Shown here in pieces: positions 1 through 19,703 of a stretch of DNA of 19,703 nt. The stretch comes from Candidatus Vampirococcus lugosii (lineage in GTDB: Bacteria > Patescibacteriota > Gracilibacteria > Absconditabacterales > Absconditicoccaceae): NCBI RefSeq assembly GCF_018420025.1, contig NZ_JAEDAM010000015.1:1-19703 (forward strand), written 5' to 3'. Made by a program: the position numbers and the translations under genes. Positions within the stretch are counted from its first letter, which is position 1. Every line of letters starts with the position of its first letter. The notes under the pieces are model-generated. The model did not search any database and had not been told where the DNA came from. It saw nothing but the letters and a program-made list of their open reading frames with translations.

Positions 1-786
1 ATTTACAACATTTTTTATTTCTGTTCGTGAATTTAATCAATAATGATCTTTAACTATATTTGACAAAATATCTCATGATTTTATAGTGTAATAATCTGGT
101 TCTAATTCTATATTCTCTGGATTCTCTGGATTCTCTGAATTCTCTGAATTCTCTGGATTCTCTGGATTCTCTGAATTCTCTGAATTCTCTGAATTCTCTG
201 GATTCTCTGGATTCTCTGGATTCTCTGGATTCTCTGAATTCTCTGAATTCTCTGGATTCTCTGAATTTTCTGGATTTTCTGGATTCTCTGAATTCTCTGA
301 ATTCTCTGGATTCTCTGGATTTTCTTGTTCATCAGATGGAATTCATATTTCTTTTGATCACCATTGTTCTTCCAACATTCTAGATTGTTCAGTATCTCAA
401 ACAGTATCATCAATTTCACCAGCTTGAACATCTCCACTACCTGAAAAGAAAGTAGTTATAGATTCTCGTAATTCAGAAATATTTTCTTTTGCCATATCAA
501 TAATACCAATTCTTTCATTATTTTGTTCACTTTCTACACTAACCAATTCATCTATAAAATTATTAAGAGCAATTTTTTGATCAGCATCCAAAGATAATGA
601 ATTATCAATATTATCCTTAATCTCTGAAATATCATCTTCATTACTTCGATCTATATCTTTACTTCAATCAATAATTCAATTTTCAACAAATAATGTATTT
701 ATAGCTTGACTTAAAACTTCATTATCTTCAACAGTTTCAACAGTTTCATTATCTTCAAACCTTTCATTATTAATATTTTCTACCAT
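1..786 (-). CDS. Acidic protein with (E-N-P/S)x23 repeat and C-terminal LysM domain; 3' end runs off the window
   Basis: ATG at 786-784. The frame stays open down to base 1 with no in-frame TAA/TAG (checked codon by codon); several in-frame TGA are read as Gly. The N-terminal ~150 aa are very D/E-rich with no obvious signal peptide. 112-318 encodes the ENP/ENS repeats. The last codons read PDYYTIKSGDILSNIVKDHYGLNSRTEIKNVVN, which fits the LysM consensus (Y-x-[VI]-K-x-GD-x-L-x-x-I-[AV]-x-x-[YH]-G). The standard-code ORF 108..437 (QRI repeat) is a different, wrong frame. Confidence 0.8.
112..318 (-). repeat. 23 tandem copies of a 9-bp unit (plus strand ATTCTCTGG / ATTCTCTGA / ATTTTCTGG), in frame, encoding Pro/Ser-Glu-Asn tripeptides
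   Basis: Direct reading gives 23 consecutive 9-bp units. Variation is limited to G/A at the last base (Pro vs Ser on the coding strand) and C/T in two units (synonymous gag/gaa Glu). Confidence 0.95.
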
Positions 787-2814: not shown

Positions 2815-3615
2815 TTAATTTGTTTTACAAGAAATAGAAATATTACCTGAATCACTAACACATTCCCAATCCCAATTTGAATCAATACTTCAAGTTAAAT
2901 TTTTTGCATTTCATAAACTACATAATTTAGTAGGTCTTGAATTAATATCTGAATTATGATCTTGTCAACATTCTATACTACCATAATTTTTTATTAATCT
3001 ATTTTTTACCGCATCTCATGTAAATGAAACATTAGAACCAGTTAATATTATATTATATAAAGAAGGAAAATCTGGATCATATATATCTCAAGTTAATATT
3101 GATCAACTTGATGTTAATGCTTCATTATCATCTGAATTTACTATAATTCCCAACTCATTTCAAAGAGTTTTTATATCCATAATTGAAAAATTTTGTGCAT
3201 AAACTTTTTCAGTATATGAAAGATCTTCACTTTCTTTTTCCAAATATCACATAATTTGATATTTATTTTTTCCTTCATTTATATTATATATATATTCAAA
3301 ATCATCTTTTGGATCAAGTTGTTTAACAGTAATTCATTGTGTATTTGAAGTAGCATTATCACCAAAAGTTCATTGATATCAAAGAATAATAGCTCAACTT
3401 GTTATAGTTATTTTATTGTCAGGCTCAGGTAAATATCATTTTCTAAATAATTCTTGTTCCAAAGATGAAGAAATATTTTGTAAACTTGTAATTCTAGCAG
3501 TATTTCTTGCATCTCTCATATATTGACCAAAAAGAAAACTAGAACTTGCTGCAAGTATCATAATAATTCATATAGAAACAATTAATTCTATCAAAGTAAA
3601 TCATTTATTTTTCAT
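2815..3615 (-). CDS. Type IV pilin (prepilin with N-terminal cleavage/methylation motif), 266 aa
   Basis: ATG at 3615-3613. The N-terminus MKNKGFTLIELIVSIGIIMILAASSSF is the textbook K-G|FTLIEL prepilin peptidase site followed by a hydrophobic alpha-1 helix. That Gly is TGA (3603-3601). The C-terminal region has two Cys pairs (..IECGQDH..KLCS.. and ..WECVSDSGNISISC..). The frame was checked codon by codon to TAA 2817-2815. Confidence 0.9.
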
Positions 3616-3782
3616 TTATTTTTAATAATAATAATCTAAATTATATTAGATAATATAATAAATATATTTTATTTAATATCAAGCTTTTATAAAAAAAAAT
3701 ATTTAATATATTTTATTGTATATTAGAGCTATATCTTTATATACAATATATCTATATTTATTAGTATAATTTTTATGTTGTA

Positions 3783-5690
3783 ATGAAAAAAATTTATTTT
3801 ATTTCAATTTTGTTATCTGTTTTATTTTTACAAGCTTGTAATACTGAATACAAGGAAATAGAGTATTCGCAGAATCAAAATTATTATACAGTTAAGACTT
3901 GATCTATAAGTACACAGTGAAATTTTATTTGAAATATTGAATCTCAAAATCAAACAGTATTATCATCAAAAACTTTTGGTAGAGTAAATACATTAAATTT
4001 TTCCAAATGAGATTTTGTTAATAAATGACAAATAATAGCAAGTGTTGATTCTGTTCAATCTTCAATTTCTTATGATTCTATATGAAATGTTTTGGAAAAT
4101 CTTCGTTCTACTAGAAATTCTACAGAATTAATGTTTCAAAATCAAATAAAATCAGCACAATCAGCATATCATCAAGCTCAAAATTCTATCAATATGATTA
4201 AATCACAATTAGCTTGAACAACAAATCAAGTTCTTAATATAGAAAATATAAATAAAAGTAATTTGCAAGTAGCACAAGAACAAATAAATTCTGCTCAACT
4301 AGCTATTGAATCTATAAATAATGAAATTGAAAATGCAAAAACTAATTTTGAACAACAAGAAAATAATATATATTCAAATGCAACATCTTCAATAAGTGCA
4401 TCATCTATTTTATCAAAAAATATTTTGAAGTTTACGGATGAAATTTTGTGAGTATCAAATCAGAATAAAAACAAAAATAATTCTTTTGAAACTTATCTTT
4501 CTGCAAGAAATTCTTCCTTAAAAGCTGAAGCAAAAAATACTTGGTCAGATTTGAATAATAAATTTGAACAAATAGAAAATATGTATAATAATTTGGAAAC
4601 TCTTGCTTGAAATCCCAATTGAAAAGAAAAAATACAAGAAATTTTGTCTGAATATGAAAAATATTTATCAGATTTGAGAAGTTTTTTATCTGAATTTTAT
4701 GAAGTTCTTGATAAAAGTGTTAATGCAGTATCTTTTCCAGAATCTAAAATAAATAATTTAAAAGAAAGAACTATAAATTATCAACAAAATTTGGAAAAAA
4801 CATTGATTGATGCACAATGAAATTTTATGGTATGAATTAAATGAAGTTTACAAGCTATAAAAAATTTGGAAAATGAAAAAACATCAACTTTTGATAGATT
4901 AAAGAATAATCTTGAACAAGCTCAAAAACAACTTGATCAAGCGAATAAAGCTTATGAAAATTATGAAGCTATGTGAACTTCTGAATCAACTAAAGTTTTG
5001 ACTCAAAAAGAGGTTTATCAAGATCAAATTAAAGTTTATGAACAACAATCTCAACAAGCACAAGATAATGTATCTGCAATTCAAAACCAAATGGAATCTG
5101 AATTATCATCAATAGATTCAAAAATAGCTGAATTAGAATGACAAAGAAAATCAGTTTCTAGTCAAATACAAAATACAAATATTGTTGCTCCATTTTCTTG
5201 AGTAATTATTGAAAATAATGTTGAATTAGGGCAATTATTATGACCTGAAAATCCTGCTATTATTTTTGCAAGCAATCAAGATTTAAAAATTAATATCAAA
5301 ATTCCACAAACTTTATGAGAAAATATTTCTCAATGAGATAATGTAAATATAAAAATTTCTTGAAAAGAACAAGAATTTACTTGATTTGTATCAAAAATAT
5401 TTCCAAATATTGATCCTTTATCCAAAAGACTTGATATAGAAATTAAATTTAATGAATCTCCATGAGATACTTTAATTTGAATGTTTGCAAATATATCTTT
5501 TGATAAAAACAATATTTCTTGATTAAAAGTTCCTTATAGTTATATAAAATATGATTATTGAAGTGCATATTTAAATATTTTGCAAGAAAATAAGTCTTTA
5601 CAAAAAATTGATATAGAAAAAATACAATGTAATAATTGAGAATGTATAATAAAATGAGATTTGAGTGTATGAGATAAAATAATAAGATAA
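3783..5690 (+). CDS. Efflux membrane-fusion protein (HlyD/RND periplasmic adaptor family), putative lipoprotein, 635 aa
   Basis: ATG at 3783. The signal/lipobox-like N-terminus is MKKIYFISILLSVLFLQAC. A long Q/N/E/K-rich coiled-coil-like central region follows. The C-terminal barrel motif is typical of adaptors (NIVAPFSGVIIENNVELGQLLGPENPAIIFASNQDLKINIKIPQ). The standard-code ORF 4263..4451 is in the same frame. Stop TAA at 5688-5690. The gene sits immediately upstream of the RND permease. Confidence 0.85.
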
Positions 5691-5720
5691 ATAATTTATT
5701 TTTTAAATTTTCTTTTAATT

Positions 5721-8700
5721 ATGTTTTGAAAATATGCTGAATTTTGGATCAAAAATCCAAAACTTACAATCATATTAATGATAGTTATTTTGATTTGGTG
5801 ATTATTATCTTGGTTTGTAATTCCTAAACAATATAATCCTGATATTGAGGCTCCAACTTTTATAATTTCTGCACAAGCTCCTTGATATACTGCAAAAGAA
5901 GTAAATAATTTGTTAGTTTCTCAAATGGAAATGAAATTTAAAGAAATAGAAGATGTTAAAGAAATTTCTTGAAATTCTATGGAAAATTTCTGATCAGTTA
6001 TGGTAATGTTTGAAATATGAACTGATAAAGAAAAAGCAACAACTAGACTTTATAATAAAATTTATACAAGTTTAGATTTTTCTCCTATGTGAATATCTCA
6101 ACCTAGTGTAATGTCTATTGATCCAAATGATATTCCAATTTTTTCTTTTGCTATTTACAATACACAAAAAGATATTCCTGAACATAAAAACTTATTAAAA
6201 CTGAAAGATATATCTATTGATATTGTTGAAAGATTAAAACTTATTGATGATACTACAGTTTTTTATAATATATGAGCATATAATCAAAAATTAATTGTAA
6301 GAACAGATTTGGAAAAGTTATCTGAATACAATGTTGATATGACACAAATTCTTTGAGCAATATCACAAAATAATCAAAATTTTTATTGATGAAAAATTAA
6401 ATATGACAATATTATTTCTGATATTCAAGTAAAATGAGAAATATCTGATCTTTCTTCTATAGAAAATATAATTGTAGCAAATTATAATTGAAATAATATT
6501 TATTTATCTGATTTGGCAAATGTATATTTTTGAATATGAAAAGAAGAACATTTTGCAAAATTTTCTGAATATTGAGATACTAATGATGCAGTTTTTATTT
6601 GATTAGCAAAATCTCCAAGTGCAAATAGTATATTTGTAGTAAATGAAGTAAAACAAGAACTTGAAAAAATAAAATCGGAACTTCCTGCATCATATGAAAT
6701 TGTTGAAATACAAAATGAATGATATGAAGCTGAGAATGCAACTAATATGTTAATTATTAATCTTTTTCAAGCTATATTTATAGTTTTTATAGTTTTGTTT
6801 TTTTATTTATGATTTAAAGATGCTATAAATAATAGTATAGCTATTCCATTAACTTTAGCTATAGTTTTTGGTATAGCTTTGGCAATATGAGATAATGTAA
6901 ATAGAATTACATTATTTGCTGTAATTTTAGTTTTATGAATGTTGGTAGATAATAGTACTGTTATAGTAGAAAACATTTCTAGACATTTAAAAGATAGAGA
7001 AACAACTTGAGTTGATAAACTTACTGCAATCAAAACTTGAGTTCAAGAAGTTGGTTTTGGTGTAATATTGGCAACAATTACTAGAATATTAGCTTTTATT
7101 TCTATGTTTTTTGTTACAGATATGATGTGAGAGTATATGTGACCTATTCCCAAATATGCAATTATAGCTCTTAGTGCATCTTTTTTTATTGCCATGTCTA
7201 TCAATCCATTTTTTGCTTATTTTCTTACAAAAAAAGATTCTCAAAAATCTAATAAAAAAAATAATATCAAACAAGAAAATATTGAAATAAAACAAACTTG
7301 GATAGAAAAAAAATATAAATCTTTGATAGAACTTTTATTAACTCCCAAAACTTCTATTTTTAGAAAAATATTTAAAGCTATTTTTTGGATAGTTTTGATC
7401 GTGTCTGTAGTAGTTCCTATATATTATCAAGTATTTAAAGCTCAAATGCTTCCCAAATCTGATAAAAATCAATTTTATATTTGGATTGATGCACCCAGAG
7501 ATTGGTCTATAGATAAAACAAAAGATTTATTAAATCATATAGATGATTTTGTTTATGATTTTTCTTATGAAAGTGATAGTAAAGAAGATGAAAATTTAAA
7601 AATAATAAAATCTACTTCATCACGATGAGGTATACAACCTGTTCCAGATTTTGCTAGTGTTTTTCGTGGAAGTTATCAAAGACAAATGCAAAATCAATTA
7701 TCTATTAAAATTAATTTAATTAAAAGTGATTATAGAGATATTTTTTCGCAAGATTTTGTTATACAATTTAGACCTTTGATAAAAAAATATATAGATAGTA
7801 AATATCCTGAAGTTGAAATTAGATTATTGGAAGAACCACCTTGACCTCCTGTACAATCAACTTTTATGTTAAAAATTTCTTGAATGCCTGATCAAGATTA
7901 TGAAAATGTTTGAAATTTTGCTAAATGGATACAAGAAAAAATAAAACCATCTTTAGTTCAAAATCAAGTTGTAGATATATATAATTCTTTTCAAGAATAT
8001 CAAACTACCTACAAAATCAATCTAGATCAAGAAAAAATAACTAGACTCTGATTAAATATAGAACAAATTTGAAATTCTCTTTATTCAATTTTTGAATGAT
8101 TAGATATATCACCCTATCATGATCAATCTACAAAAAAACCTATAAATATTTTTGTTACAGCAAATCAAGAAAAAGTAAATGATATAAATATTTTTGATAA
8201 AATATATTTTACAAGCAAAAATTGAAAACAAGTTCCATTATTGGAAATAGCTGATATAATACCTCAAAAAAAAGCACAAACAATAATGAATAATGATATG
8301 CTTCCTACAGTATATATTTATTGAGAAATATGAGAAGATAGTATTGTTTATCCTAGTTTTGCATTATTATCTATATTTTTGGATAAAAAATTTTGGCAAG
8401 ATAAATTTGAAATTATCTCTTGGAATTTATATTGATTTAAATTGAAAGAAAAATTAACTTGAAATAATTATGAAGTAAATTTTTGATGAGAACGGGAAGT
8501 TACTATGGATACTTTTGCTGATATGTGAATAGCTATGATAATAGCTTTGCTTTGAATATATTTTATAATAGTTGCACAATTTAAATCATTTACTATATGA
8601 TGAATAGTTATGATAACATTTTTGTTATGATTTTTTGGTGTATTTCCTTGATTTGCTAGTATGTATATGATAAATTGAGAATTTTTTTCTGCTACTAGTA

Positions 8701-9023
8701 TGATATGAGTTATTGCTCTTGCTTGAATAGTAGTTGGTAATGCTATTATTTTAATAGAATATGTAAATGTTTTACTAAAATCTGGTTTATCTATTAGAGA
8801 TTCTATTATAAAAGCTTGAATTGTAAGACTTAGACCTATAATTCTTACTTCTCTTACTACAGTATTATGAATTACTACAATTTTATGAGATCCAGTATGG
8901 AGTGGTTTGGCATTTTCTATAATCTTTGGTCTAACTATTTCTGCCGTACTTACATTGATTGTAGTACCAGTTTTCTTATATGATAACTTAATTTGGCAAG
9001 ATCAAAAATTAAGTAAAAAATAA
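5721..9023 (+). CDS. RND-superfamily efflux permease (AcrB/AcrD/AcrF-like), 1100 aa
   Basis: ATG at 5721. The full frame was read through with no TAA/TAG (many TGA=Gly) to TAA 9021-9023. Supporting features are an N-terminal TM helix followed by a large soluble domain, the TM4-type motif LVLGMLVDNSTVIVENISRH, and the TM10-type motif ALAGIVVGNAIILIEYVN. The standard-code ORF 7194..7628 is in the same frame. Confidence 0.9.
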
Positions 9024-9831: not shown

Positions 9832-10260
9832 TTAATTATTTTTTTTAGATAATTTTAGATTAACAAGAGATTTTGCTATTTGCTCTTCAGCTTCTATAAA
9901 TGCCTCCATATCTATTTTATTTTTCTGACTTTTAATTTCTTCCATATTTTTTATAGCATCTAATCTTGCTTGTTCAGCCTTTTCAAAATCTAAATCTTCA
10001 GCTCCTACTACTGTATCCAAAATAATTTTACAATTATTTTCATTAAATTGTAATACTCCCCTTCATACTGCAAATTCTTTTGAAAAATCAGAATTATTTT
10101 CAACATAATCAATATATAATACCGATGGAATTATAGCAGATAAGATACAATGGTGATTGTCAAGTATAGTTAATTCTCAAGCTAAAGTATGGACATTTAT
10201 CAATTTCACATTATCATTTATAAAAGTTTCTCACTCAAAAGAAATTAATTCTAATTTCAT
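9832..10260 (-). CDS. atpC: F1 ATP synthase subunit epsilon, 142 aa
   Basis: ATG at 10260-10258. MKLELISFEGETFINDNVKLINVHTLAGELTILDNHH...GRGVLQF..., followed by the C-terminal helical hairpin (EKAEQARLDAIKNMEE...). Last gene of the atp operon. Stop TAA at 9834-9832. Confidence 0.9.
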
Positions 10261-10286
10261 TATAAAATATATTTAAATATTAAACA

Positions 10287-11681
10287 TTATTTTTTTTGAC
10301 TATTTTCAAAAGAACTTATAACATCATCAATAGTCGCTTTGTACATAAAATGTTTTTCTCAAATATGATCAAGTTCTCAATCAATTATTTTTCTAAATCA
10401 AGAAATAGTATCACTTAATTTAGCATAAACTCATTTCATTCAAGTAAATTGTTCTGCAACGAAGAATGGTTGAGATAAGAATTTTTGAATTCTTCTAGCT
10501 CTTGAAACAGTCAATTTATCTTCTATAGAAAGTTCATCCATTCAAAGAATTGCTATAATATCTTGTAATTCTTTATATTTTTGAAGAATTCTTTGAATTT
10601 CTCTTGCAACATTATAATGTTCCTTTCATAAAACTTGAGGATCCAAAACTGTACTTGTAGAATCCAACGGATCAACAGCAGGGTAAATACCTAATTCTGC
10701 AATAGATCTATTCAAAACTATAGTACTATCCAAATGAGAAAAAGTTGTAGCAGGAGCTGGATCAGTAAGATCATCTGCTGGCACATAAACTGCTTGTACT
10801 GAAGTAATAGATCAATCTTTTGTTGAAGTAATTCTTTCTTGTAAAGCACCCATATCTGTTGCTAAAGTTGGTTGATATCAAACTGCTGATGGAATTCTTC
10901 AAAGTAATGCAGATATTTCTGATCAAGCTTGAGTAAATCTAAATATATTATCTATAAATAATAAAACATCTCTTTTTTCTCTATCTCTAAAATTTTCTGC
11001 CATTGTCAATCAAGTAAGTGCAACTCTAGCTCTAGGTCAAGGAGCTTCGTTCATTTGTCAAAATACCATAGCAGTTTTATCCAAAACTCAAGAATCTTTC
11101 ATTTCATGATATAAATCATTTCATTCTCTAGTTCTTTCTCAAACTCAAGCAACTACAGAATAACCACCATGTTCAGATGCAATATTATGAATTAATTCTT
11201 GCATTATCACTGTTTTTCAAACTCAAGCTCATCAAAATAATCAAACTTTTCATCATTTCAACATTGGAGCTATCAAATCTATAACTTTAATTCAAGTTTC
11301 AAATATTTCTGCACTTGTTGTTAATTCACTTAATTTTGGTGCATCTCTATGTATAGGATCCAAATTTTTAGTTTTAGGTTTTACTTTTCAATCTATCGGC
11401 TCTCACAAAACATTAAAAATTCTTCATAATACTTGTTCTCATACAGGAACTTTTATAGGACTATCAGTTGCAATAACTTCCAAACCTCTTTTTAATCAAT
11501 CTACAGGATTCATAGCTATAGTTCTAACAACTCAATCTCAAAGTAATTGTTGTACTTCCAAAACAACTTTGGAACCATTATGACTTAATTCAAGTGCATC
11601 ATAAATAGAAGGTACTAATCAATTTGAAAACTCAACATCTATAACAACTCAAATAATTCTAATTATTTTTCCTTTATTCAT
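10287..11681 (-). CDS. atpD: F1 ATP synthase subunit beta, 464 aa
   Basis: ATG at 11681-11679. Walker A GGAGVGKT is at 11234-11211 with all four Gly encoded by TGA. Other matches: [44 protein letters not shown], and the DELS motif ([10 protein letters not shown]). Stop TAA at 10289-10287. Confidence 0.98.
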
Positions 11682-11713
11682 AATTAATTTAATAACTTAA
11701 TAAAATTTAAAAA

Positions 11714-12631
11714 CTAATCTTTCATTGATTCTACTCAAGAAACAATTTCACCAACTTCTTTTGTAATATAAGCTTGTCTTTCTTTATTATACTCCAAAGT
11801 AAGATCATAGGCATAATTATTTGCATTATCTTTTGCATTTTTCATAGCTATCATACGAGCAGAATGTTCTGATGCTTTTGATTCCAACAATATATCATAA
11901 AACATAGAATCCAATATCATAGGCATTATATAATTAAGCAATCTATCTCTTGATGGTTCTACATAATAATCATTTAAATCTTGTGAGTGATCAATTTCTA
12001 ACAATTCATTATAATAATTCTCTCACAAAATTTGATAAAAATAATCATAAATGGAATCTTTACTAAGAGAAAGAAATTTTGAAGTTAAAGGAATTTGTTT
12101 AATAGTATTTACATAATAATTATAAAATATAACAACTCTTCAATATTCTCACAAAACATATTTTTTAGTAAGCATTTTTGATATAGATTTAGAAAAAGAA
12201 TATGAAACATCATCAATAAATTCAGATGAATAATCAAGAATTATATTATTACCCGTTCTTGCCAAAAAATTACTTCATTTTTTTCATATAGAAACAAAAT
12301 CAATATTTTCATCTTTATTATTCTGTGTATAATCCAAAACTTTTTTCATAACATTTATATTATAAGCTCAACATAATCATTTATTTGATGTTATAAGAAC
12401 TCATAAAGTTTTTTTATTTGAAATATTATCAGAAAAAAAATGACTATTTTTTATAGAATCATTAAGATCAAGGAATATCTTAAATATAGATTTTATATAT
12501 TCTTTTTTCAATAAAGCTAAATCTTGTGCTTTTTTCATTTTTATTGTAGATATAAGTTCCATAGTTTTAGTAATTTTTGCAGTATTTTTTACAGAACTTA
12601 TTTTTCTCTTAATTTCTTTTGTATTAGACAT
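11714..12631 (-). CDS. atpG: F1 ATP synthase subunit gamma, 305 aa
   Basis: ATG at 12631-12629. MSNTKEIKRKISSVKNTAKITKTMELISTIKMKKAQ... The middle reads LITSNKGLCGAYN. The C-terminus reads ESKASEHSARMIAMKNAKDNA...ITKEVGEIVSGVESMKD and reads through the TGA at 11737-11735 to TAG 11716-11714. The two standard-code fragments (11735..12004, 12401..12631) are in this frame. Confidence 0.95.
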
Positions 12632-12665
12632 ATTTAAACTATAAGTTTACATATTAAATAATAAT

Positions 12666-14171
<1,506 letters not shown>

Positions 14172-14184
14172 TATTTATTGTTTT

Positions 14185-14547
14185 TTAATAATTAAATAAA
14201 TTTTTTATAGTTTTTTGAAATTTCAAAAAGCTACAATCCAACATTTTATCATTACAAATCAATCTAATACCTCATAATAATGAAGTTTTAGGAACTAAAT
14301 CTATTTCATTTTTGTGAACATTAACTGCAAAATAATTTTTATATATTTGTATAGATTGGTTTATAACTTCATCTTTATCTTGCATAGGATAATATTCTAC
14401 AATATAAACATTTTTTGAATATAACTCATTTTTAAACTTTATTCTTCACTTATTTCATAGTTCTTTTATTAAATCTCTATAAAGAAATAAGTTCTTTTTT
14501 AAATATATAAGTTCCTCTCTAGTTAAATTATTCAATAACTTATTCAT
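14185..14547 (-). CDS. atpH: ATP synthase subunit delta (OSCP), unusually short at 120 aa
   Basis: ATG at 14547-14545. An in-frame TAA at 14565-14563 prevents any longer N-terminus. The frame was checked codon by codon to TAA 14187-14185. The C-terminal part, ...VYIVEYYPMQDKDEVINQSIQIYKNYF...SLLGGIRLICNDKMLDCSFLKFQKTIKNL, fits the delta C-terminal signature (GG[IV]x[IVL]xxGDxxxDxS). It occupies the operon slot between b and alpha. Confidence 0.75.
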
Positions 14548-14568: not shown

Positions 14569-15030
14569 TTAAATAACTTCTTTTTTTATAAATTCTTTAT
14601 TTTTTGATGGCTCATCAAAAAACTTTCAATTTATCATAAGAGATGTATCAACTATTTTTTTCTTTATTCATCTCAACATAATTTCTCTTTCTTTTTCCAT
14701 ATCTTTCTTGGCAGAATCAATAATAAAATCAGCTTTCAATTCTGCTTCTTTCATTTTTTCATTCATTTGTTTTTCAAGCAAAATTTCATTATTTTTTTGC
14801 ATTTCATTTACTTTCTTTTTAGTTTCATCCAATATTTTATTAGCTTCTTTTTCGGCATCATTCAATTTTTGTCTTTTTATATCATCAGCTTGTTTCAAAT
14901 CCAAAATTTTTTGTCTTCTATCTTCTATCAATTTTATAATTTTATTTCATAAAAAATAATAAAAAACAAAAACTATTATTCAAAAATTTATAATTTGTGC
15001 CAAAATAACTCAAAAACTTATATCTTCCAT
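14569..15030 (-). CDS. atpF: Fo ATP synthase subunit b, 153 aa
   Basis: ATG at 15030-15028. The N-terminal TM helix is MEDISFGVILAQIINFGIIVFVFYYFLGNKIIKLIEDRRQKI, followed by a long charged helix. The frame was checked across both TGA-separated parts to TAA 14571-14569. The standard-code ORF 14668..14931 is in the same frame. Confidence 0.9.
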
Positions 15031-15057: not shown

Positions 15058-17310
15058 TTAGTTAGATAATATCAAAAATGAAATTATCAATCAATATATT
15101 GCCGCCGACTCTACCATTGCAATAAATAATGTCATAAATGCCATAGATTTACCTTTATTATCTGGAGAATTATTTATTCAATTAATAGCTCATTTTATCA
15201 AAAATCACTCTCATACACCTACTCAAATACTAGCAAGTCAAATTGCTAATCCTGCTCACATCAATCAATAAATTCAAATAAGTCAATTACTAGCTAATAT
15301 CTGAAATGATATTATTAATCAATATATAGCTGCTGATTCTATCAATGCCACTCACAATATTGATACTGTCAAAAAATATCACATCATTTTTGAATTTTTT
15401 CACATAGTATATATTGCTGTCTCTGACATATATCATCTTCAAATAGCTACTCATAAACCAGCTAATCATATCGCCAGTCATGCTCATATTGCCATATCAT
15501 GATTTTCTAATCATCACATAATATTAAAAACTATTATCAATCAATATATAGCTGTAACTTCTATAAGTGCAATAAATAATACCATAAAAGTCATTATTTT
15601 ATTTTTAATCTCTGGATTTCTATTTATTGCTCATAATGCTCAAACTATCAATCTACCTTGTCATATTCAAACTCATAATCATGATAATCATATTGCCAAT
15701 CATGCTCATATAGATCAATATATTGACATAATAATACCTGGAGATATTAATTGAAAAGCTATTACTAATCAATATATTGCCGCTGACTCTATCAATGCTA
15801 CTCATAATATTGATATTGTCATAAAAAAATTAGTCATTTTATTATTATCTCAAATAACTTCCATAGTTTTTTCTGACATATATCATCTTCAAATAGCTAC
15901 TCATAAACCAGCTAATCATATCGCTAATCATGCTCATATTGCCAAATCATAATTTTCTAATCATCATATGATATTAAAAGAAATTATCAGTCAATATATA
16001 GCTGTAACTTCTACCAATGCAACAAATAAAACCATAAGTGTCATTATTTTGTTTTTCAACAAAGGTCTTTTAGAAATAGCTTTTAATGCTCAAACTACTA
16101 ATCTACCTTGTCATACTCAAACTCATAATCAAGATAATCATACCGCCAATCATGCTCATATAGCTCAATACATTGACATAATAACATCTGGAGATATTAA
16201 TTGAAAAGCTATTACTAATCAATATATCGCTGCCGACTCTACTAATGCTATTGATAATATTGACACTGCCAAATATGAATTTGACATTGCTTCATTCTCT
16301 CACATAAGTTCTATTGATTTCTTCGCAAGTGTTCACTGACCTATAGCTACTCATAAACCCGCTAATCATATCGCCAATCATGCTCATATCGCCAATCATC
16401 AATCTATTCATGTATTTCACATTACTCTAAATGCAAACACTAATCAATATATTGCCACTGACTCTACTAATGCTATAAATAACACCATAAAAGTCATCAC
16501 TCTATTTTTTGAATCTGATCTCTTTCAAATAGCTCATAATGCTCAAACTACTAATTTACCTTGTCATACTCAAACTCATAATCAAGATAATCATACCGCC
16601 AATCATGCTCATATAGCTCAATACATTGACATAATAACATCTGGAGATATTAATTGAAAAGCTATTACTAATCAATATATCGCTGCCGACTCTACTAATG
16701 CTATTGATAATATTGACACTGCCAAATATGAATTTGACATTGCTTCATTCTCTCACATAAGTTCTATTGATTTCTTCGCAAGTGTTCACTGACCTATAGC
16801 TACTCATAAACCCGCTAATCATATCGCCAATCATGCTCATATCGCCAATCATCAATCTATTCATGTATTTCACATTACTCTAAATGCAAACACTAATCAA
16901 TATATTGCCACTGACTCTACTAATGCTATAAATAACACCATAAAAGTCATCACTCTATTTTTTGAATCTGATCTCTTTCAAATAGCTCATAATGCTCAAG
17001 AGACCAAAAATCACTCTCATATTCAAGCTCAAGCTCATGCAAGTCATATCGCTAATCCAGCAGCTATACTAGAATATGCAGATATACTTTCATTACCAAA
17101 TATTTGAAACGAAACAACCAATGAATATATTAATGCCGATTCCAATAAAGCCACCCCCAAAATAGATATTGTCAAATAAAAACTACTCATACTAGGTCTA
17201 TCTGACATTACTTCCATAGTTTTTTTAACCAAAATTCACTGTCATATAGCAACTCATATTCAAGCAAGTCAAATTGCTAATCAAGGTCATAAATACCATA
17301 AAAATTCCAT
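15058..17310 (-). CDS. atpE: Fo ATP synthase subunit c, ten c-subunit hairpins fused in one 750-aa polypeptide (about 20 TM helices)
   Basis: ATG at 17310-17308 and TAA at 15060-15058, 751 codons in total. The 3' ~900 nt of the frame was checked triplet by triplet on the plus strand; the remainder was read through directly, and the ten module lengths sum to exactly 750 aa. The product is ten consecutive modules of [GxGxGxG helix 1 - polar loop - helix 2 with Glu]. Examples: MEFLWYLGPGLAIGLAGIGVAIGQG...LGVALLESALIYSLVV (H1) and ...GAGLAIGLSGLGVGIGQGRLIVGALGAINRNPEIKNKIMTFMVLFIALIEVTAIYGL (H8). It lies in the canonical slot between atpB and atpF. Most Gly codons are TGA (7 of 8 in H1). Confidence 0.9.
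16083..16997 (-). repeat. Near-perfect tandem duplication of a 453-bp (151-codon, two-hairpin) unit inside the c-subunit gene
   Basis: 16083-16535 and 16536-16988 were aligned by eye. They are identical except for one position (C at 16101 vs T at 16554, Arg vs Lys). Identity continues for 9 more nt (16989-16997) into a partial third copy. Confidence 0.9.
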
Positions 17311-17373: not shown

Positions 17374-18204
17374 TTAAGCAAATTTTGCAACCTTTATAAA
17401 TATAGCTATCAATAATGGAAAAACTAATGCTTGTATCAAAGCAACAAGTAAAGATTGAAAATAAAGTATAACTGGTCCCAAAACTGGAAACTCAAAATTT
17501 AAATAAGTCAAAGTAAGTCATGAAATAGCTCATACCAACATAGCTAATAACATACCACCAGAAGTTACATTTCAAAACAATCTAAACGATAAAGATATTA
17601 CTTTTGCAAAATGTCAAACTATTTCTAATAATCACAAAAACAAAGAAATAATAAGATCAAAAATTTTAACAAGTATAAATAAAGGCCAATCAAAAATAGG
17701 ATTTAAATTTCATCTAGTATAAGGAAGATAATTTTTTCAAAATATAGGAAAATATTCATACAATGCTTTTCAAAATCATAAAGCTCTAAATTGCTCAAAA
17801 ATAATAATCAAAAGTCATATCAAAGCCATTGCTATATTAAAATTTATATCAGCTGTAGGAATATCTATATATTTTTTCAATAAAGAAACATCTGTATCTG
17901 CTATATTTCAAAATACTGGAACCAAAATTTCCAAAAATACTCAAAGTAAATTTGAAATTAATATAACAAAAAAAAGTATTACTACATAAGTTTTTATCCA
18001 TTTTTTTTCTTCATTTCATAATATATCTTCAAAAAAATCATACATTTTTTCAAAAAAATAATCAAAAAGTATTGAAAATCAACTATTAGGAAATAATCTA
18101 TAAAATATAGATATAAACAATATAAGTAATACTACTAAAACAGTTCAATAAAAAAATCAAGGATTTAGATAAAATGATAAAAAAGCTTCAAAAACACTTT
18201 CCAT
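17374..18204 (-). CDS. atpB: Fo ATP synthase subunit a, 276 aa
   Basis: ATG at 18204-18202. The frame was checked codon by codon to TAA 17376-17374. It contains the invariant-Arg motif of subunit a (KVISLSFRLFGNVTSGGMLL) and the C-terminal LVALIQALVFPLLIAIF. First gene of the operon. Confidence 0.93.
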
Positions 18205-18464: not shown

Positions 18465-19703
18465 TTAAACTTTAACTCTTACTTTGCCCGTCAATAAGTC
18501 CTTCATAAGTCATTTTTTAATATTTTCAAGTTTTTGTTTATATGCTTGTTCTTTTTCTATTTTTTCATCTGCACTTGATAATATTTCTGCTATTTTTTGT
18601 TGTTCTTGAAGAGATTGAGGAATTTGCAATTTTAAGTGTTTTAATTTTTTAATAGTAAATGCTTTTTGACTAGTTCATATTATTAAATCATCTTGTTGCT
18701 TGTAAATTGCTTCTTTTAAAAAATGTTTTAAAAAATATTTATTAATATCTTGTCTATATTTTCTTAACCAAATAATATTTCAATCTTTAAAGTAAAATTT
18801 ATCTGTTCATTTTACTAAATAAACATTTCACAGTGTTCATACTGCAGTAATTAAAATATCTCATTCTAAAGGTACTCAAAAATTATTTTTTATATTATTA
18901 AATTTATCTGTAGAAATATATAATAAATTATTGATTTCTACATTATTTATTTTTTTAGTTATTTCTTTTCATCTATAAAAAGGTATTCAATTTTTTTTAT
19001 ATTCATTAAAAAATATTCTCTTGCTTGATGTAAGCTCTCAAACTTCTCCCAATTTCTTCACCTCCCAACTCTCTGGAATTTTCCCCAACTCACTATCTTT
19101 AAATTTTGTATGAGGTTTTCAAGTATTTATATCAATTCATTTTGTAAATAAATCTTCCATCAATCAAGTTTTGATTTTTTTGTATTTTTCTATCAAATCA
19201 TCAGTTTTTTGTATAGCTTCATCTACTGTTGAAAGTATTTTTGCTATTTTTTGTTGTTCTTGAAATGATTGAGGAAAAGTAATAAAAATATTTTTTAAAT
19301 CTCAGTTATTTATAGCTTCTTGAGTACTTCATTCAGCATATAAATCTTTTTGTTTATTAAAATCATCTGACAATATAAATTGATAAAGATAATCAGAATT
19401 TATTGATGTATTTAATCATAAAAATCAAGTAGATAATATATATTTATTATATAGTTCATTATTAGCTTTTATTACTTTTAAAGTATATCTCATTTTAGCA
19501 AAATATATATTATCAATGATAGCTTGTATATTTGCTCTTGATGGTCTTTTATTAAATGTAATATATTTTTCAAAAGAAATTATTTTATTTCATTGAATTG
19601 ATGAAGTAGATAAATATTTTTTTTCTCAGTTAAAATTTATAATTCAGCTTCATTGAATTTTAAAAAAGTTTTCATCTACAAGATTTGTTGTTTTCCACCC
19701 TTC
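18465..19703 (-). CDS. hsdS: Type I restriction-modification specificity subunit HsdS; the 5' end (a few codons) is off the window
   Basis: The frame is open from 19703 to TAA 18467-18465 (413 codons). It starts at EGWKTTNLVDENFF (typical HsdS N-terminal LPEGWxxxxL). There are two target-recognition domains separated by the central conserved helix FPQSFQEQQKIAKILSTVDEAIQKTDDLIEKYKKIKTGLMEDLFTKG. The C-terminal conserved helix is IPQSLQEQQKIAEILSSADEKIEKEQAYKQKLENIKKGLMKDLLTGKVRV. A 22-nt exact DNA repeat, GCTATTTTTTGTTGTTCTTGAA, occurs at 18589-18610 and 19243-19264. Confidence 0.92.

What the first reader, a model, noticed from the sequence alone, without database searches (positions are those of the whole stretch)
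16083..16997. A 453-bp tandem duplication, 452/453 identical, inside the c-ring gene: recent change in hairpin number or copy-number uncertainty
Two adjacent 453-bp units (16083-16535 and 16536-16988) differ at a single base (16101 C vs 16554 T, Arg vs Lys), whereas the other two-hairpin units are clearly diverged. Each unit adds exactly two hairpins in frame. Unequal recombination here would shift the ring between 8, 10 and 12 hairpins without breaking the ORF, which would change the ion/ATP gearing. Such long perfect repeats are also exactly what short-read assemblers collapse or expand. The true hairpin count in the organism or population is therefore uncertain.
Basis: partly seen in the sequence, partly recalled or inferred. 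Interest (0 to 1): 0.7.

Follow-up and report, generated by a model that had tools for sequence, protein, structure and literature searches.

The report
Fresh two-hairpin duplication in single-chain c-ring
The rotor gene of the ATP synthase of the predatory bacterium Vampirococcus lugosii encodes ten rotor units in one protein, and two adjacent two-unit blocks are almost identical, so the rotor either grew very recently or its true size is mis-stated by the short-read assembly.

Summary
Window 16084-16546 and 16537-16999 are identical at 462 of 463 bases. The only difference is 16103 C versus 16556 T (Arg403/Lys252). Other paralogous units are 76-84% identical.

The window is a whole contig of Candidatus Vampirococcus lugosii. 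It uses genetic code 25, in which TGA encodes Gly. The repeat lies in atpE (15058-17310, minus strand). This 750-aa gene sits between atpB and atpF and encodes ten F-type c hairpins, all with the helix-2 Glu.

The repeat runs from loop to loop of the B-type hairpins, which makes hairpin 4 a chimera of H6 helix 1 and H2 helix 2. The identical run equals one period plus a 10-bp crossover interval. That is the pattern expected from misaligned recombination.

Relatives carry 2, 4, 6, 8, 10 or 12 hairpins at the same operon position. Two lineages whose atpB genes are 95% identical have 12 and 8. One relative has its own 599-bp perfect module repeat.

The genome came from amplified DNA of about 10 cells, 2x125-bp reads and SPAdes, so a 463-bp repeat cannot be counted. 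The sequence supports at least two copies, not exactly two. No closer relative or population variant was found. Long-tract gene conversion is an additional rival.

The parts
15058..17310 (-). atpE: F-type ATP synthase subunit c, 750 aa, ten fused hairpins (H1-H10) of alternating A-type and B-type. Must be read with code 25; 106 of 122 Gly codons are TGA.
   Evidence: Translation. Ten PF00137 stretches, E=7e-131. 100% match to the V. lugosii protein P0001. AlphaFold2 model with 20 helices, pLDDT 85.8, pTM 0.86.
16537..16999 (-). Repeat copy nearer the gene start (residues about 105-258): second helix of H2, all of H3, first helix of H4. Carries the T allele at 16556 (Lys252).
16084..16546 (-). 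Repeat copy further from the gene start (residues about 256-409): second helix of H4, all of H5, first helix of H6. Carries the C allele at 16103 (Arg403).
16537..16546 (-). 10-bp crossover interval TTGAGCATTA (gene strand; codons for Gly-Ala-Leu). It is shared by both copies and also occurs at 16990-16999 and 16084-16093. It is the junction of the duplication, in the cytoplasmic loop region of the B-type hairpins.
   Evidence: three boundary contexts. The identical run is 463 = 453 + 10.
16408..16632 (-). Hairpin 4, a chimera. Helix 1 is identical to that of H6 and helix 2 is identical to that of H2.
   Evidence: H4 is 84% identical to H2 and 77% to H6 in DNA overall, and each half is identical to one parent.
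16103..16103 (-). The only difference between the copies (C here, T at 16556). It is non-synonymous and lies 19 nt from the copy boundary.
15283..16179 (-). Older module duplication in another register: H6-H7 (16179-15733) and H8-H9 (15729-15283).
   Evidence: H6/H8 are 84% identical in DNA (dS 0.40); H7/H9 are 79% (dS 0.37); dN/dS is 0.37-0.48. H7 and H9 both match hairpin 5 of six-hairpin homologues best.
17374..18204 (-). atpB (subunit a), immediately upstream of atpE.
   Evidence: PF00119, E=4e-28.
14569..15030 (-). atpF (subunit b), immediately downstream of atpE.
   Evidence: PF00430, E=1e-15.
9832..14547 (-). Rest of the F1Fo operon: a delta-like ORF (14185-14547, no Pfam hit), atpA (12666-14171), atpG (11714-12631), atpD (10287-11681) and atpC (9832-10260).
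   Evidence: Pfam hits.

Best explanation
The repeat is most likely a real and very recent product of misaligned homologous recombination inside a modular, single-chain F-type c-ring gene.

The gene is built from two-hairpin modules, each an A-type plus a B-type hairpin. An unequal exchange between the loop regions of two paralogous B-type hairpins (today's H2 and H6) resolved within a 10-bp identical stretch. It duplicated the segment 'H2 helix 2 - H3 - H6 helix 1'. This added one complete A-type hairpin (H5) and one new chimeric B-type hairpin (H4), in frame and with both ion-binding Glu residues intact. An eight-hairpin gene thereby became a ten-hairpin gene.

What is shown: the anatomy of the junction, the near-identity, the intact reading frame and carboxylates, and the step-of-two series in relatives.

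What is inferred: that the polypeptide forms the whole ring, so that ions per ATP went from 8/3 to 10/3; and that the event was a net gain rather than a conversion.

The deposited sequence fixes the copy number only as at least two.
For: - Junction anatomy. The identical run is one period plus 10 bp, the boundaries lie at the same point of the unit, and H4 is an exact chimera.
- Linked allele. The junction-linked copy carries T, whereas the flank-linked copy carries C 19 nt from the boundary. A simple amplification chimera of a single copy would carry C.
- Age hierarchy of modules within the gene: dS is 0 for the new pair, about 0.4 for H6/H8 and H7/H9, and above 1 for H1/H3 and H2/H6. dN/dS is 0.2-0.5 and all ten Glu residues are kept. 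This indicates stepwise growth with retention of earlier copies.
- Origin. Vl hairpins map onto six-hairpin homologues as h1, h2, h3, h2/h4, h3, h4, h5, h4, h5, h6.
- Family series. Relatives carry 2, 4, 6, 8, 10 and 12 hairpins in the same operon slot.
- Rapid change. L002 (12 hairpins) and L003/L113 (8 hairpins) differ by four hairpins at 92-96% flank identity.
- Independent case. L002 has its own 599-bp perfect module repeat.
- Structure. AlphaFold2 gives ten confident hairpins with pTM 0.86. The best solved-structure match is the two-hairpin c1 of the Acetobacterium woodii F-type ring.
- Feasibility. An engineered single-chain c10 is functional in Bacillus PS3 (PMC8809890).
Against: - No reads, depth or long reads are available.
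- The assembly came from MDA/MALBAC-amplified DNA and 2x125-bp reads. Neither the junction nor the copy number has independent support.
- No relative closer than about 65% amino-acid identity exists in the protein, genome or metagenome collections searched. The ancestral hairpin number therefore cannot be rooted.
- A long conversion tract (at least 453 bp) would leave the same pattern.
- Hairpin counts of 8 and 10 are rare in the family. Unlike 2, 4, 6 and 12, they do not divide 12, which hints that some could be collapsed 12s.
- That one polypeptide equals one ring is not demonstrated. Several relatives carry two c genes.
Confidence: 0.55

Rival explanations
1. The duplication mechanism is real, but the assembly under-counts it. 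The organism has three or more near-identical modules (12 or more hairpins). The assembler traversed the repeat loop the minimum number of times.
For: - The repeat (463 bp) is longer than the reads (125 bp) and any k-mer SPAdes could use.
- The only copy-specific base lies 19 nt from the boundary, so extra internal copies would be invisible.
- Twelve hairpins is much commoner in the family than ten: 11 versus 2 of the 99 best hits.
- 2, 4, 6 and 12 all divide 12, whereas 8 and 10 do not.
- Both perfect repeats seen (Vl and L002) appear as exactly two perfect copies.
Against: - There is no positive evidence for a third copy.
- Ten-hairpin (L001) and eight-hairpin (L003/L034/L113) genes exist in relatives with clearly diverged modules, and the eight-hairpin form recurs in three assemblies.
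- The V. lugosii architecture, with two EVT/GRG modules, is not simply that of the known 12-hairpin genes.
Confidence: 0.2
2. Long-tract gene conversion, or another non-reciprocal misaligned repair event, overwrote one pre-existing diverged module with its neighbour. The gene had ten hairpins before and after. The near-identity reflects concerted evolution, not a change of ring size.
For: - A conversion tract of at least one period gives exactly the observed run of period plus chance homology (my own reasoning from the geometry seen).
- In relatives, internal modules are more similar to each other than terminal ones are (L001, L002, L005). That is typical of homogenised arrays.
- A ten-hairpin gene exists in L001.
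Against: - Tracts shorter than 453 bp are excluded by the run length.
- Family members differ in module number by steps of two over short evolutionary distances. Net gains and losses therefore do occur.
- Most arrays (about 40 of 44 surveyed) show no long near-identical stretch, so homogenisation is not pervasive.
Confidence: 0.15
3. The repeat is an artefact and the organism has a single copy (eight hairpins). The junction was created by template switching between the 77-84% similar hairpin units during MDA/MALBAC, or by the assembler.
For: - Whole-genome amplification is known to create chimeric junctions (established knowledge), and the DNA came from about 10 cells.
- The C-to-T difference is of the type produced by cytosine deamination.
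- Repeat-rich c genes break assemblies elsewhere: contigs L011/L093 end inside the gene.
Against: - The junction cannot be produced by a k-mer assembler without reads that span it, because only 10 bp are shared.
- A chimera of a single copy would carry the C allele next to the junction, but the assembly has T.
- MDA chimeras are mostly inverted, not direct (my own knowledge).
- The contig continues for 15 kb and 2.7 kb on either side.
Confidence: 0.1

Closest known systems
[quoted passage not shown]
   Same: All rotor hairpins are fused in one gene, and each keeps its ion-binding residues. It was deduced from sequence to be a monomeric rotor.
   Different: It is an archaeal A/V-type enzyme. 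Here the operon is F-type (a, c, b, delta-like, alpha, gamma, beta, epsilon). The gene has ten hairpins of two alternating kinds, and one module is 99.8% identical to its neighbour.
Engineered single-chain c10 ring of Bacillus PS3 FoF1 (Mitome et al. 2004, described in PMC8809890)
   Same: Ten F-type c hairpins in one polypeptide. It was shown to be active in proton-coupled ATP synthesis and hydrolysis, so a covalently closed F-type c10 can work.
   Different: It is artificial, with identical repeats joined by Gly-Ser-Ala-Gly linkers. The V. lugosii gene is natural, with hairpins 37-82% identical in protein (apart from the new pair) and native linkers of 3-8 residues.
Acetobacterium woodii F-type c1 subunit (PDB 4bem chain J)
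   Same: A two-hairpin c subunit in an F-type enzyme. It is the best structural match of the model (TM 0.74 on the target, rmsd 2.4 A over 159 columns) and corresponds to the two-hairpin module that is duplicated here.
   Different: c1 contributes one module to a ring otherwise made of single-hairpin subunits, and it has lost the carboxylate of one hairpin (my own knowledge). Here every hairpin keeps Glu and the modules are chained.
Multi-hairpin c genes of other code-25 CPR bacteria (Gracilibacteria/Absconditabacteria MAGs: P0002-P0099, L001-L119)
   Same: Same family and the same operon slot, with 2, 4, 6, 7, 8, 10, 12 or 13 hairpins. L002 has an equivalent perfect module repeat.
   Different: At most about 65% identical to V. 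lugosii. None is described in the papers searched. Most arrays are old, with no near-identical modules.

Membership tests
F-type ATP synthase subunit c (atpE, PF00137) | Helical-hairpin domain matching PF00137 | tested here: met
   Ten stretches, E=7e-131. The model has 20 helices in ten hairpins.
F-type ATP synthase subunit c (atpE, PF00137) | Conserved ion-binding carboxylate in the middle of helix 2 | tested here: met
   All ten hairpins carry Glu, as ES(A/V)AIYGL or EVTAIYGL.
F-type ATP synthase subunit c (atpE, PF00137) | Encoded between atpB and atpF in an F1Fo operon | tested here: met
   PF00119 upstream and PF00430 downstream, followed by alpha, gamma, beta and epsilon.
Single-chain (monomeric) rotor ring, as in M. 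kandleri K or engineered c10 | The hairpin number of one polypeptide lies within the range of known ring sizes, and no second c gene is needed | tested here: inconclusive
   Ten hairpins fall inside the known F-type range of 8-17 (my own knowledge), and this operon has a single c gene. The rest of the genome was not seen, and relatives often have two c genes.
Single-chain (monomeric) rotor ring, as in M. kandleri K or engineered c10 | The polypeptide closes into one ring in the enzyme | not testable with these tools
   pTM of 0.86 suggests a defined global arrangement, but no coordinates were available to measure closure. Foldseek compares single chains only.
Single-chain (monomeric) rotor ring, as in M. 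kandleri K or engineered c10 | A/V-type ancestry (for membership of the M. kandleri K family proper) | tested here: not met
   The operon is F-type. Archaeal multi-hairpin proteins are only 29-32% identical. This is therefore an analogue, not a member.
Recent tandem segmental duplication by unequal exchange | Head-to-tail copies without a spacer, with an identical run of one period plus a short shared interval | tested here: met
   463 = 453 + 10, with the boundaries at the same point of the unit.
Recent tandem segmental duplication by unequal exchange | Chimeric unit at the junction, with the reading frame kept | tested here: met
   H4 is H6 helix 1 plus H2 helix 2. The repeat is 151 codons.
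Recent tandem segmental duplication by unequal exchange | Net gain of a unit relative to the ancestor | tested here: inconclusive
   No close outgroup exists. Long-tract conversion gives the same pattern.
Assembly artefact at a long repeat | Repeat longer than the reads and k-mers | tested here: met
   463 bp versus 2x125-bp reads, SPAdes 3.6.0 with default settings.
Assembly artefact at a long repeat | Abnormal read depth or absence of junction-spanning reads | not testable with these tools
   No reads are available. The protein has one member on one contig and no entry in the contig index.

The most novel reading that the evidence does not exclude
In V. lugosii the whole Fo rotor is one 750-aa polypeptide, so ring stoichiometry is written directly in the genome as a tandem-repeat number. 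The near-identical module then records a very recent shift from 8 to 10 ion sites per turn (2.67 to 3.33 ions per ATP). It would be one step in an ongoing series from 2 to 12 hairpins, driven by recombination, in code-25 CPR bacteria. That would amount to a naturally evolvable gearbox of an F-type ATP synthase.
Probability: 0.3. Interest if true: 0.8.

Novelty: new variant of a known kind. Interest (0 to 1): 0.62.

Why it matters
The number of c hairpins sets the ion cost of ATP. It is normally an emergent property of subunit packing and has to be measured structurally. In a single-chain ring the number can be read from the gene, and here it appears to change by simple repeat recombination.

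V. lugosii lacks a known respiratory chain, and the role of its ATP synthase is debated (PMC8080830). The ring size matters for that debate. From the chemiosmotic relation, assuming 50 kJ/mol for ATP, rings of 8, 10 and 12 hairpins balance at about 194, 155 and 130 mV. This is an inference from established bioenergetics, not a measurement.

The family of 2- to 13-hairpin F-type c genes in Gracilibacteria and Absconditabacteria did not appear in any paper I could find. It offers a natural experiment on how rotor stoichiometry evolves.

On the practical side, the annotated length of this gene in the public record should be treated as a lower bound until long reads or PCR confirm it.

Tried and rejected
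- Standard-code ORFs. The table-11 ORF list shows no long ORFs. Recoding TGA as sense restores them, and TGA falls at conserved Gly positions, so the code is 25. All proteins were translated by script.
- Search for closer relatives or population variants. I searched 5.8 billion protein clusters, GTDB genomes (whose Gly-containing patterns miss TGA-rich genes), and JGI metagenomes with a Gly-free degenerate DNA pattern. Nothing exceeded about 65% amino-acid identity. An exact look-up of the protein found no further contig.
- 'L003 (8 hairpins) is just a collapsed L002 (12 hairpins)'. Not a simple collapse. The internal modules are only 80-92% identical between the two, while the flanks are 92-98% identical. 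A collapse of modules that were identical within the L003 organism itself cannot be excluded.
- Short-tract gene conversion. Rejected because the identical run spans a full period. Long tracts remain possible.
- Ring closure. Foldseek against the PDB returns only one- and two-hairpin chains, and model coordinates are not exposed.
- Prior description. Seven literature searches and a preprint on ring stoichiometry found none. Three of the seven targeted prior description of multi-hairpin c genes in these bacteria. The V. lugosii paper aligns one hairpin only and never uses the word hairpin in its supplement.
- Sequencing technology of the L001/L002 assemblies. It could not be found.

Full report
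**Observation.** Window 16084-16546 and 16537-16999 are the same sequence at 462 of 463 positions, with period 453 (script; MAFFT alignment; Tandem Repeats Finder). The single internal difference is 16103 C versus 16556 T. All other homologous hairpin pairs in the gene are 76-84% identical in DNA.

**What the region is.** With the standard bacterial code the window has almost no ORFs. Reading TGA as a sense codon restores long ORFs. TGA sits where ATP synthase subunits have conserved Gly, so the code is 25. The c gene alone uses TGA for 106 of its 122 Gly codons.

The window is identical in length to the only contig that carries protein P0001 of Candidatus Vampirococcus lugosii. P0001 is 100% identical to the gene product.

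The minus strand carries a complete F-type operon (Pfam):
- atpB, 17374-18204
- atpE, 15058-17310
- atpF, 14569-15030
- a delta-like ORF
- atpA, atpG, atpD and atpC

atpE encodes 750 residues with ten PF00137 stretches. These are ten hairpins of about 75 residues each, alternating between two kinds:
- A-type, with loop ...KKxxExMxxxxxM...
- B-type, with loop ...GALxAIxxxPxxKNK...

Every hairpin keeps the helix-2 Glu. AlphaFold2 gives 20 helices in ten hairpins with pLDDT 85.8 and pTM 0.86. The best solved-structure match is the two-hairpin c1 subunit of the Acetobacterium woodii F-type ring.

**Anatomy of the repeat.** In gene orientation the first copy covers residues about 105-258 and the second about 256-409. 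Each copy runs from the loop of one B-type hairpin to the loop of the next. As a result:
- H3 and H5 are identical.
- H4 is an exact chimera of H6 helix 1 and H2 helix 2.
- The ten bases TTGAGCATTA (Gly-Ala-Leu) occur at all three boundaries. The identical run is therefore one period plus this 10-bp interval.

This is what a single misaligned exchange between H2 and the ancestor of H6 would leave. The one difference is non-synonymous (AGA Arg403 versus AAA Lys252), and dS between the copies is 0.

**History of the gene.** Other module pairs are older:
- H6/H8: dS 0.40
- H7/H9: dS 0.37
- H3/H7: dS 0.50
- H1/H3 and H2/H6: dS above 1

dN/dS is 0.2-0.5 across these pairs. H7 and H9 both match hairpin 5 of six-hairpin homologues best. 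H1 and H2 match hairpins 1 and 2. H6 and H8 are closer to each other than to any foreign hairpin. The simplest reading is stepwise growth from a six-hairpin-like gene to eight and then to ten, with earlier additions kept under purifying selection.

**Relatives.** The protein search found 258 homologues. Among the best 99, a hairpin HMM counts the following:

| Hairpins | Proteins |
|---|---|
| 6 | 62 |
| 7 | 15 |
| 8 | 1 |
| 9 (truncated) | 1 |
| 10 | 2 |
| 12 | 11 |
| 13 | 7 |

Genome and metagenome scans add two- and four-hairpin genes. In the arrangement atpB-c-atpF, which is also that of V. lugosii, the full even series 2, 4, 6, 8, 10, 12 is present.

One clade is clearly in flux. L002 (12 hairpins) and L003/L034/L113 (8 hairpins, the same sequence in three assemblies) have 95% identical atpB genes and 92-96% identical flanks. 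L001 has 10 hairpins. L002 carries its own 599-bp exact run at offset 450. L110 has a 237-bp exact run that is cut by the locus end.

Among about 44 distinct multi-hairpin genes, only these have long near-identical modules. Such events are therefore sporadic, and the V. lugosii event is among the youngest seen.

**How far the assembly can be trusted.** The genome came from about ten micromanipulated cells. The DNA was amplified by MDA or MALBAC, sequenced as 2x125-bp Illumina reads and assembled with SPAdes 3.6.0 at default settings (PMC8080830). A 463-bp repeat exceeds both read and k-mer length.

The following is inference from how de Bruijn assemblers work. In a de Bruijn graph the repeat is a loop. 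The only copy-specific base lies 19 nt from the boundary. It therefore labels the entry edge (C, linked to the flank) and the junction edge (T), not the body of the repeat. The minimal path gives two copies, and a third would be invisible.

Conversely, the junction shares only 10 bp, so reads must have spanned it. A chimera of a single copy would carry C, not T, next to the junction. This argues, modestly, that the junction is real.

I found no closer relative, no second contig and no read-level data.

**Explanations.**
- Best (0.55): a real, recent unequal exchange that added a module, taking the gene from 8 to 10 hairpins. The copy number is known only as at least two.
- Rival (0.2): the same mechanism with three or more copies in reality. 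Twelve is much commoner than ten in the family, and 2, 4, 6 and 12 all divide 12 while 8 and 10 do not.
- Rival (0.15): long-tract gene conversion with no change in number. A tract of at least one period gives the same pattern.
- Rival (0.1): an amplification or assembly artefact on a single copy.

**Functional meaning (inferred).** If one chain forms the whole ring, each module adds two ion sites per turn. Ions per ATP would then be 2.67, 3.33 and 4.0 for 8, 10 and 12 hairpins.

Two precedents make a single-chain ring plausible. An engineered single-chain c10 works in Bacillus PS3 (PMC8809890). The 13-hairpin K subunit of Methanopyrus kandleri is the natural archaeal precedent (PMC2359735).

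One caveat weakens the assumption. Several relatives carry two c genes in one operon, in the combinations 6+6, 12+2, 12+6 and 13+6.

**Known or new.** Multi-hairpin proteolipids and tandem duplication by unequal exchange are both known kinds. A natural F-type single-chain multi-hairpin c gene family in code-25 CPR bacteria was not described in any paper I could find. The V. lugosii paper aligned only hairpin 8. I therefore rate this a new variant of a known kind, with moderate to high interest. The interest is tempered because the key number, the copy count in the organism, cannot be settled from the data available.

Noticed in passing
Whole window; atpE 15058-17310: The contig uses genetic code 25 (TGA = Gly). 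106 of 122 Gly codons in atpE are TGA. Standard-code tools see no genes here, and pattern searches that back-translate Gly as GGN miss this organism.
   Followed up: yes
PMC8080830 Supplementary Fig. 6, versus window 15505-15729 (hairpin 8): The published Na+-motif alignment shows only hairpin 8 of the ten, with TGA written as W. Hairpin 8 has the EVT variant. H1, H3 and H5 have GQG...ES...Y, and H2 and H10 have a two-carboxylate GEG...ES pattern like Fusobacterium. The paper's inference about ion specificity rests on an unrepresentative hairpin.
   Followed up: partly
Window 15733-15957 (H7) and 15283-15507 (H9): These two A-type hairpins have Arg (GRGY) at the helix-1 position that is Gln or Glu in the others. 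The same GRGY occurs in the penultimate hairpin of many relatives (P0021, P0032, P0012). Whether these sites still carry ions is unknown.
   Followed up: no
L006, L007, L009, L010, L013, L100, L116, L117, L119: Some relatives have a second c gene on the other side of atpB, in the order cN-atpB-cM-atpF. The combinations are 12+2, 13+6, 6+6 and 12+6, which leaves the composition of their rings open.
   Followed up: partly
L019, L020, L027, L033, L035, L088, L099: Other relatives carry two complete a-c-b modules in tandem (c2 then c1, c2 then c2, or c2 and c6). This recalls the two a subunits and two stalks reported for Chloroflexus aurantiacus ATP synthase (PMC12002316, seen).
   Followed up: no
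L002 gene positions 841-1889; L110: There are independent perfect module repeats in a relative clade: a 599-bp exact run at offset 450 in L002, and a 237-bp exact run in L110 that is cut by the locus end.
   Followed up: yes
L011 / L093 (contig of 3261 bp): This contig ends inside a c gene that already has eight hairpins. It is an example of assemblies breaking at these repeats.
   Followed up: partly
P0100-P0120; L016, L017, L022, L030, L031, L036: Archaeal proteolipids of about 1000-1150 aa with 11-13 hairpin matches occur in Promethearchaeota, Thermoplasmata, Methanosarcinales and Methanobacteriota MAGs, not only in Methanopyrus.
   Followed up: no
Window 112-325: A 9-bp tandem repeat (ATTCTCTGG x 23.8) encodes (P/S)EN repeats in an acidic minus-strand ORF that runs off the start of the contig. 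The ORF has no Pfam match.
   Followed up: partly
Window 14185-14547: The ORF in the delta-subunit position is only 120 aa and has no Pfam hit. Relatives have a 115-119-aa ORF at the same place.
   Followed up: no
Window 2815-3615, 3765-9023 and 18465-19493: Neighbouring genes are a prepilin-type protein with an N-terminal methylation motif, a HlyD-like membrane-fusion protein plus an AcrB-like RND pump, and a type I restriction specificity subunit (HsdS) with its usual internal repeat (18490-18622 versus 19144-19276).
   Followed up: partly
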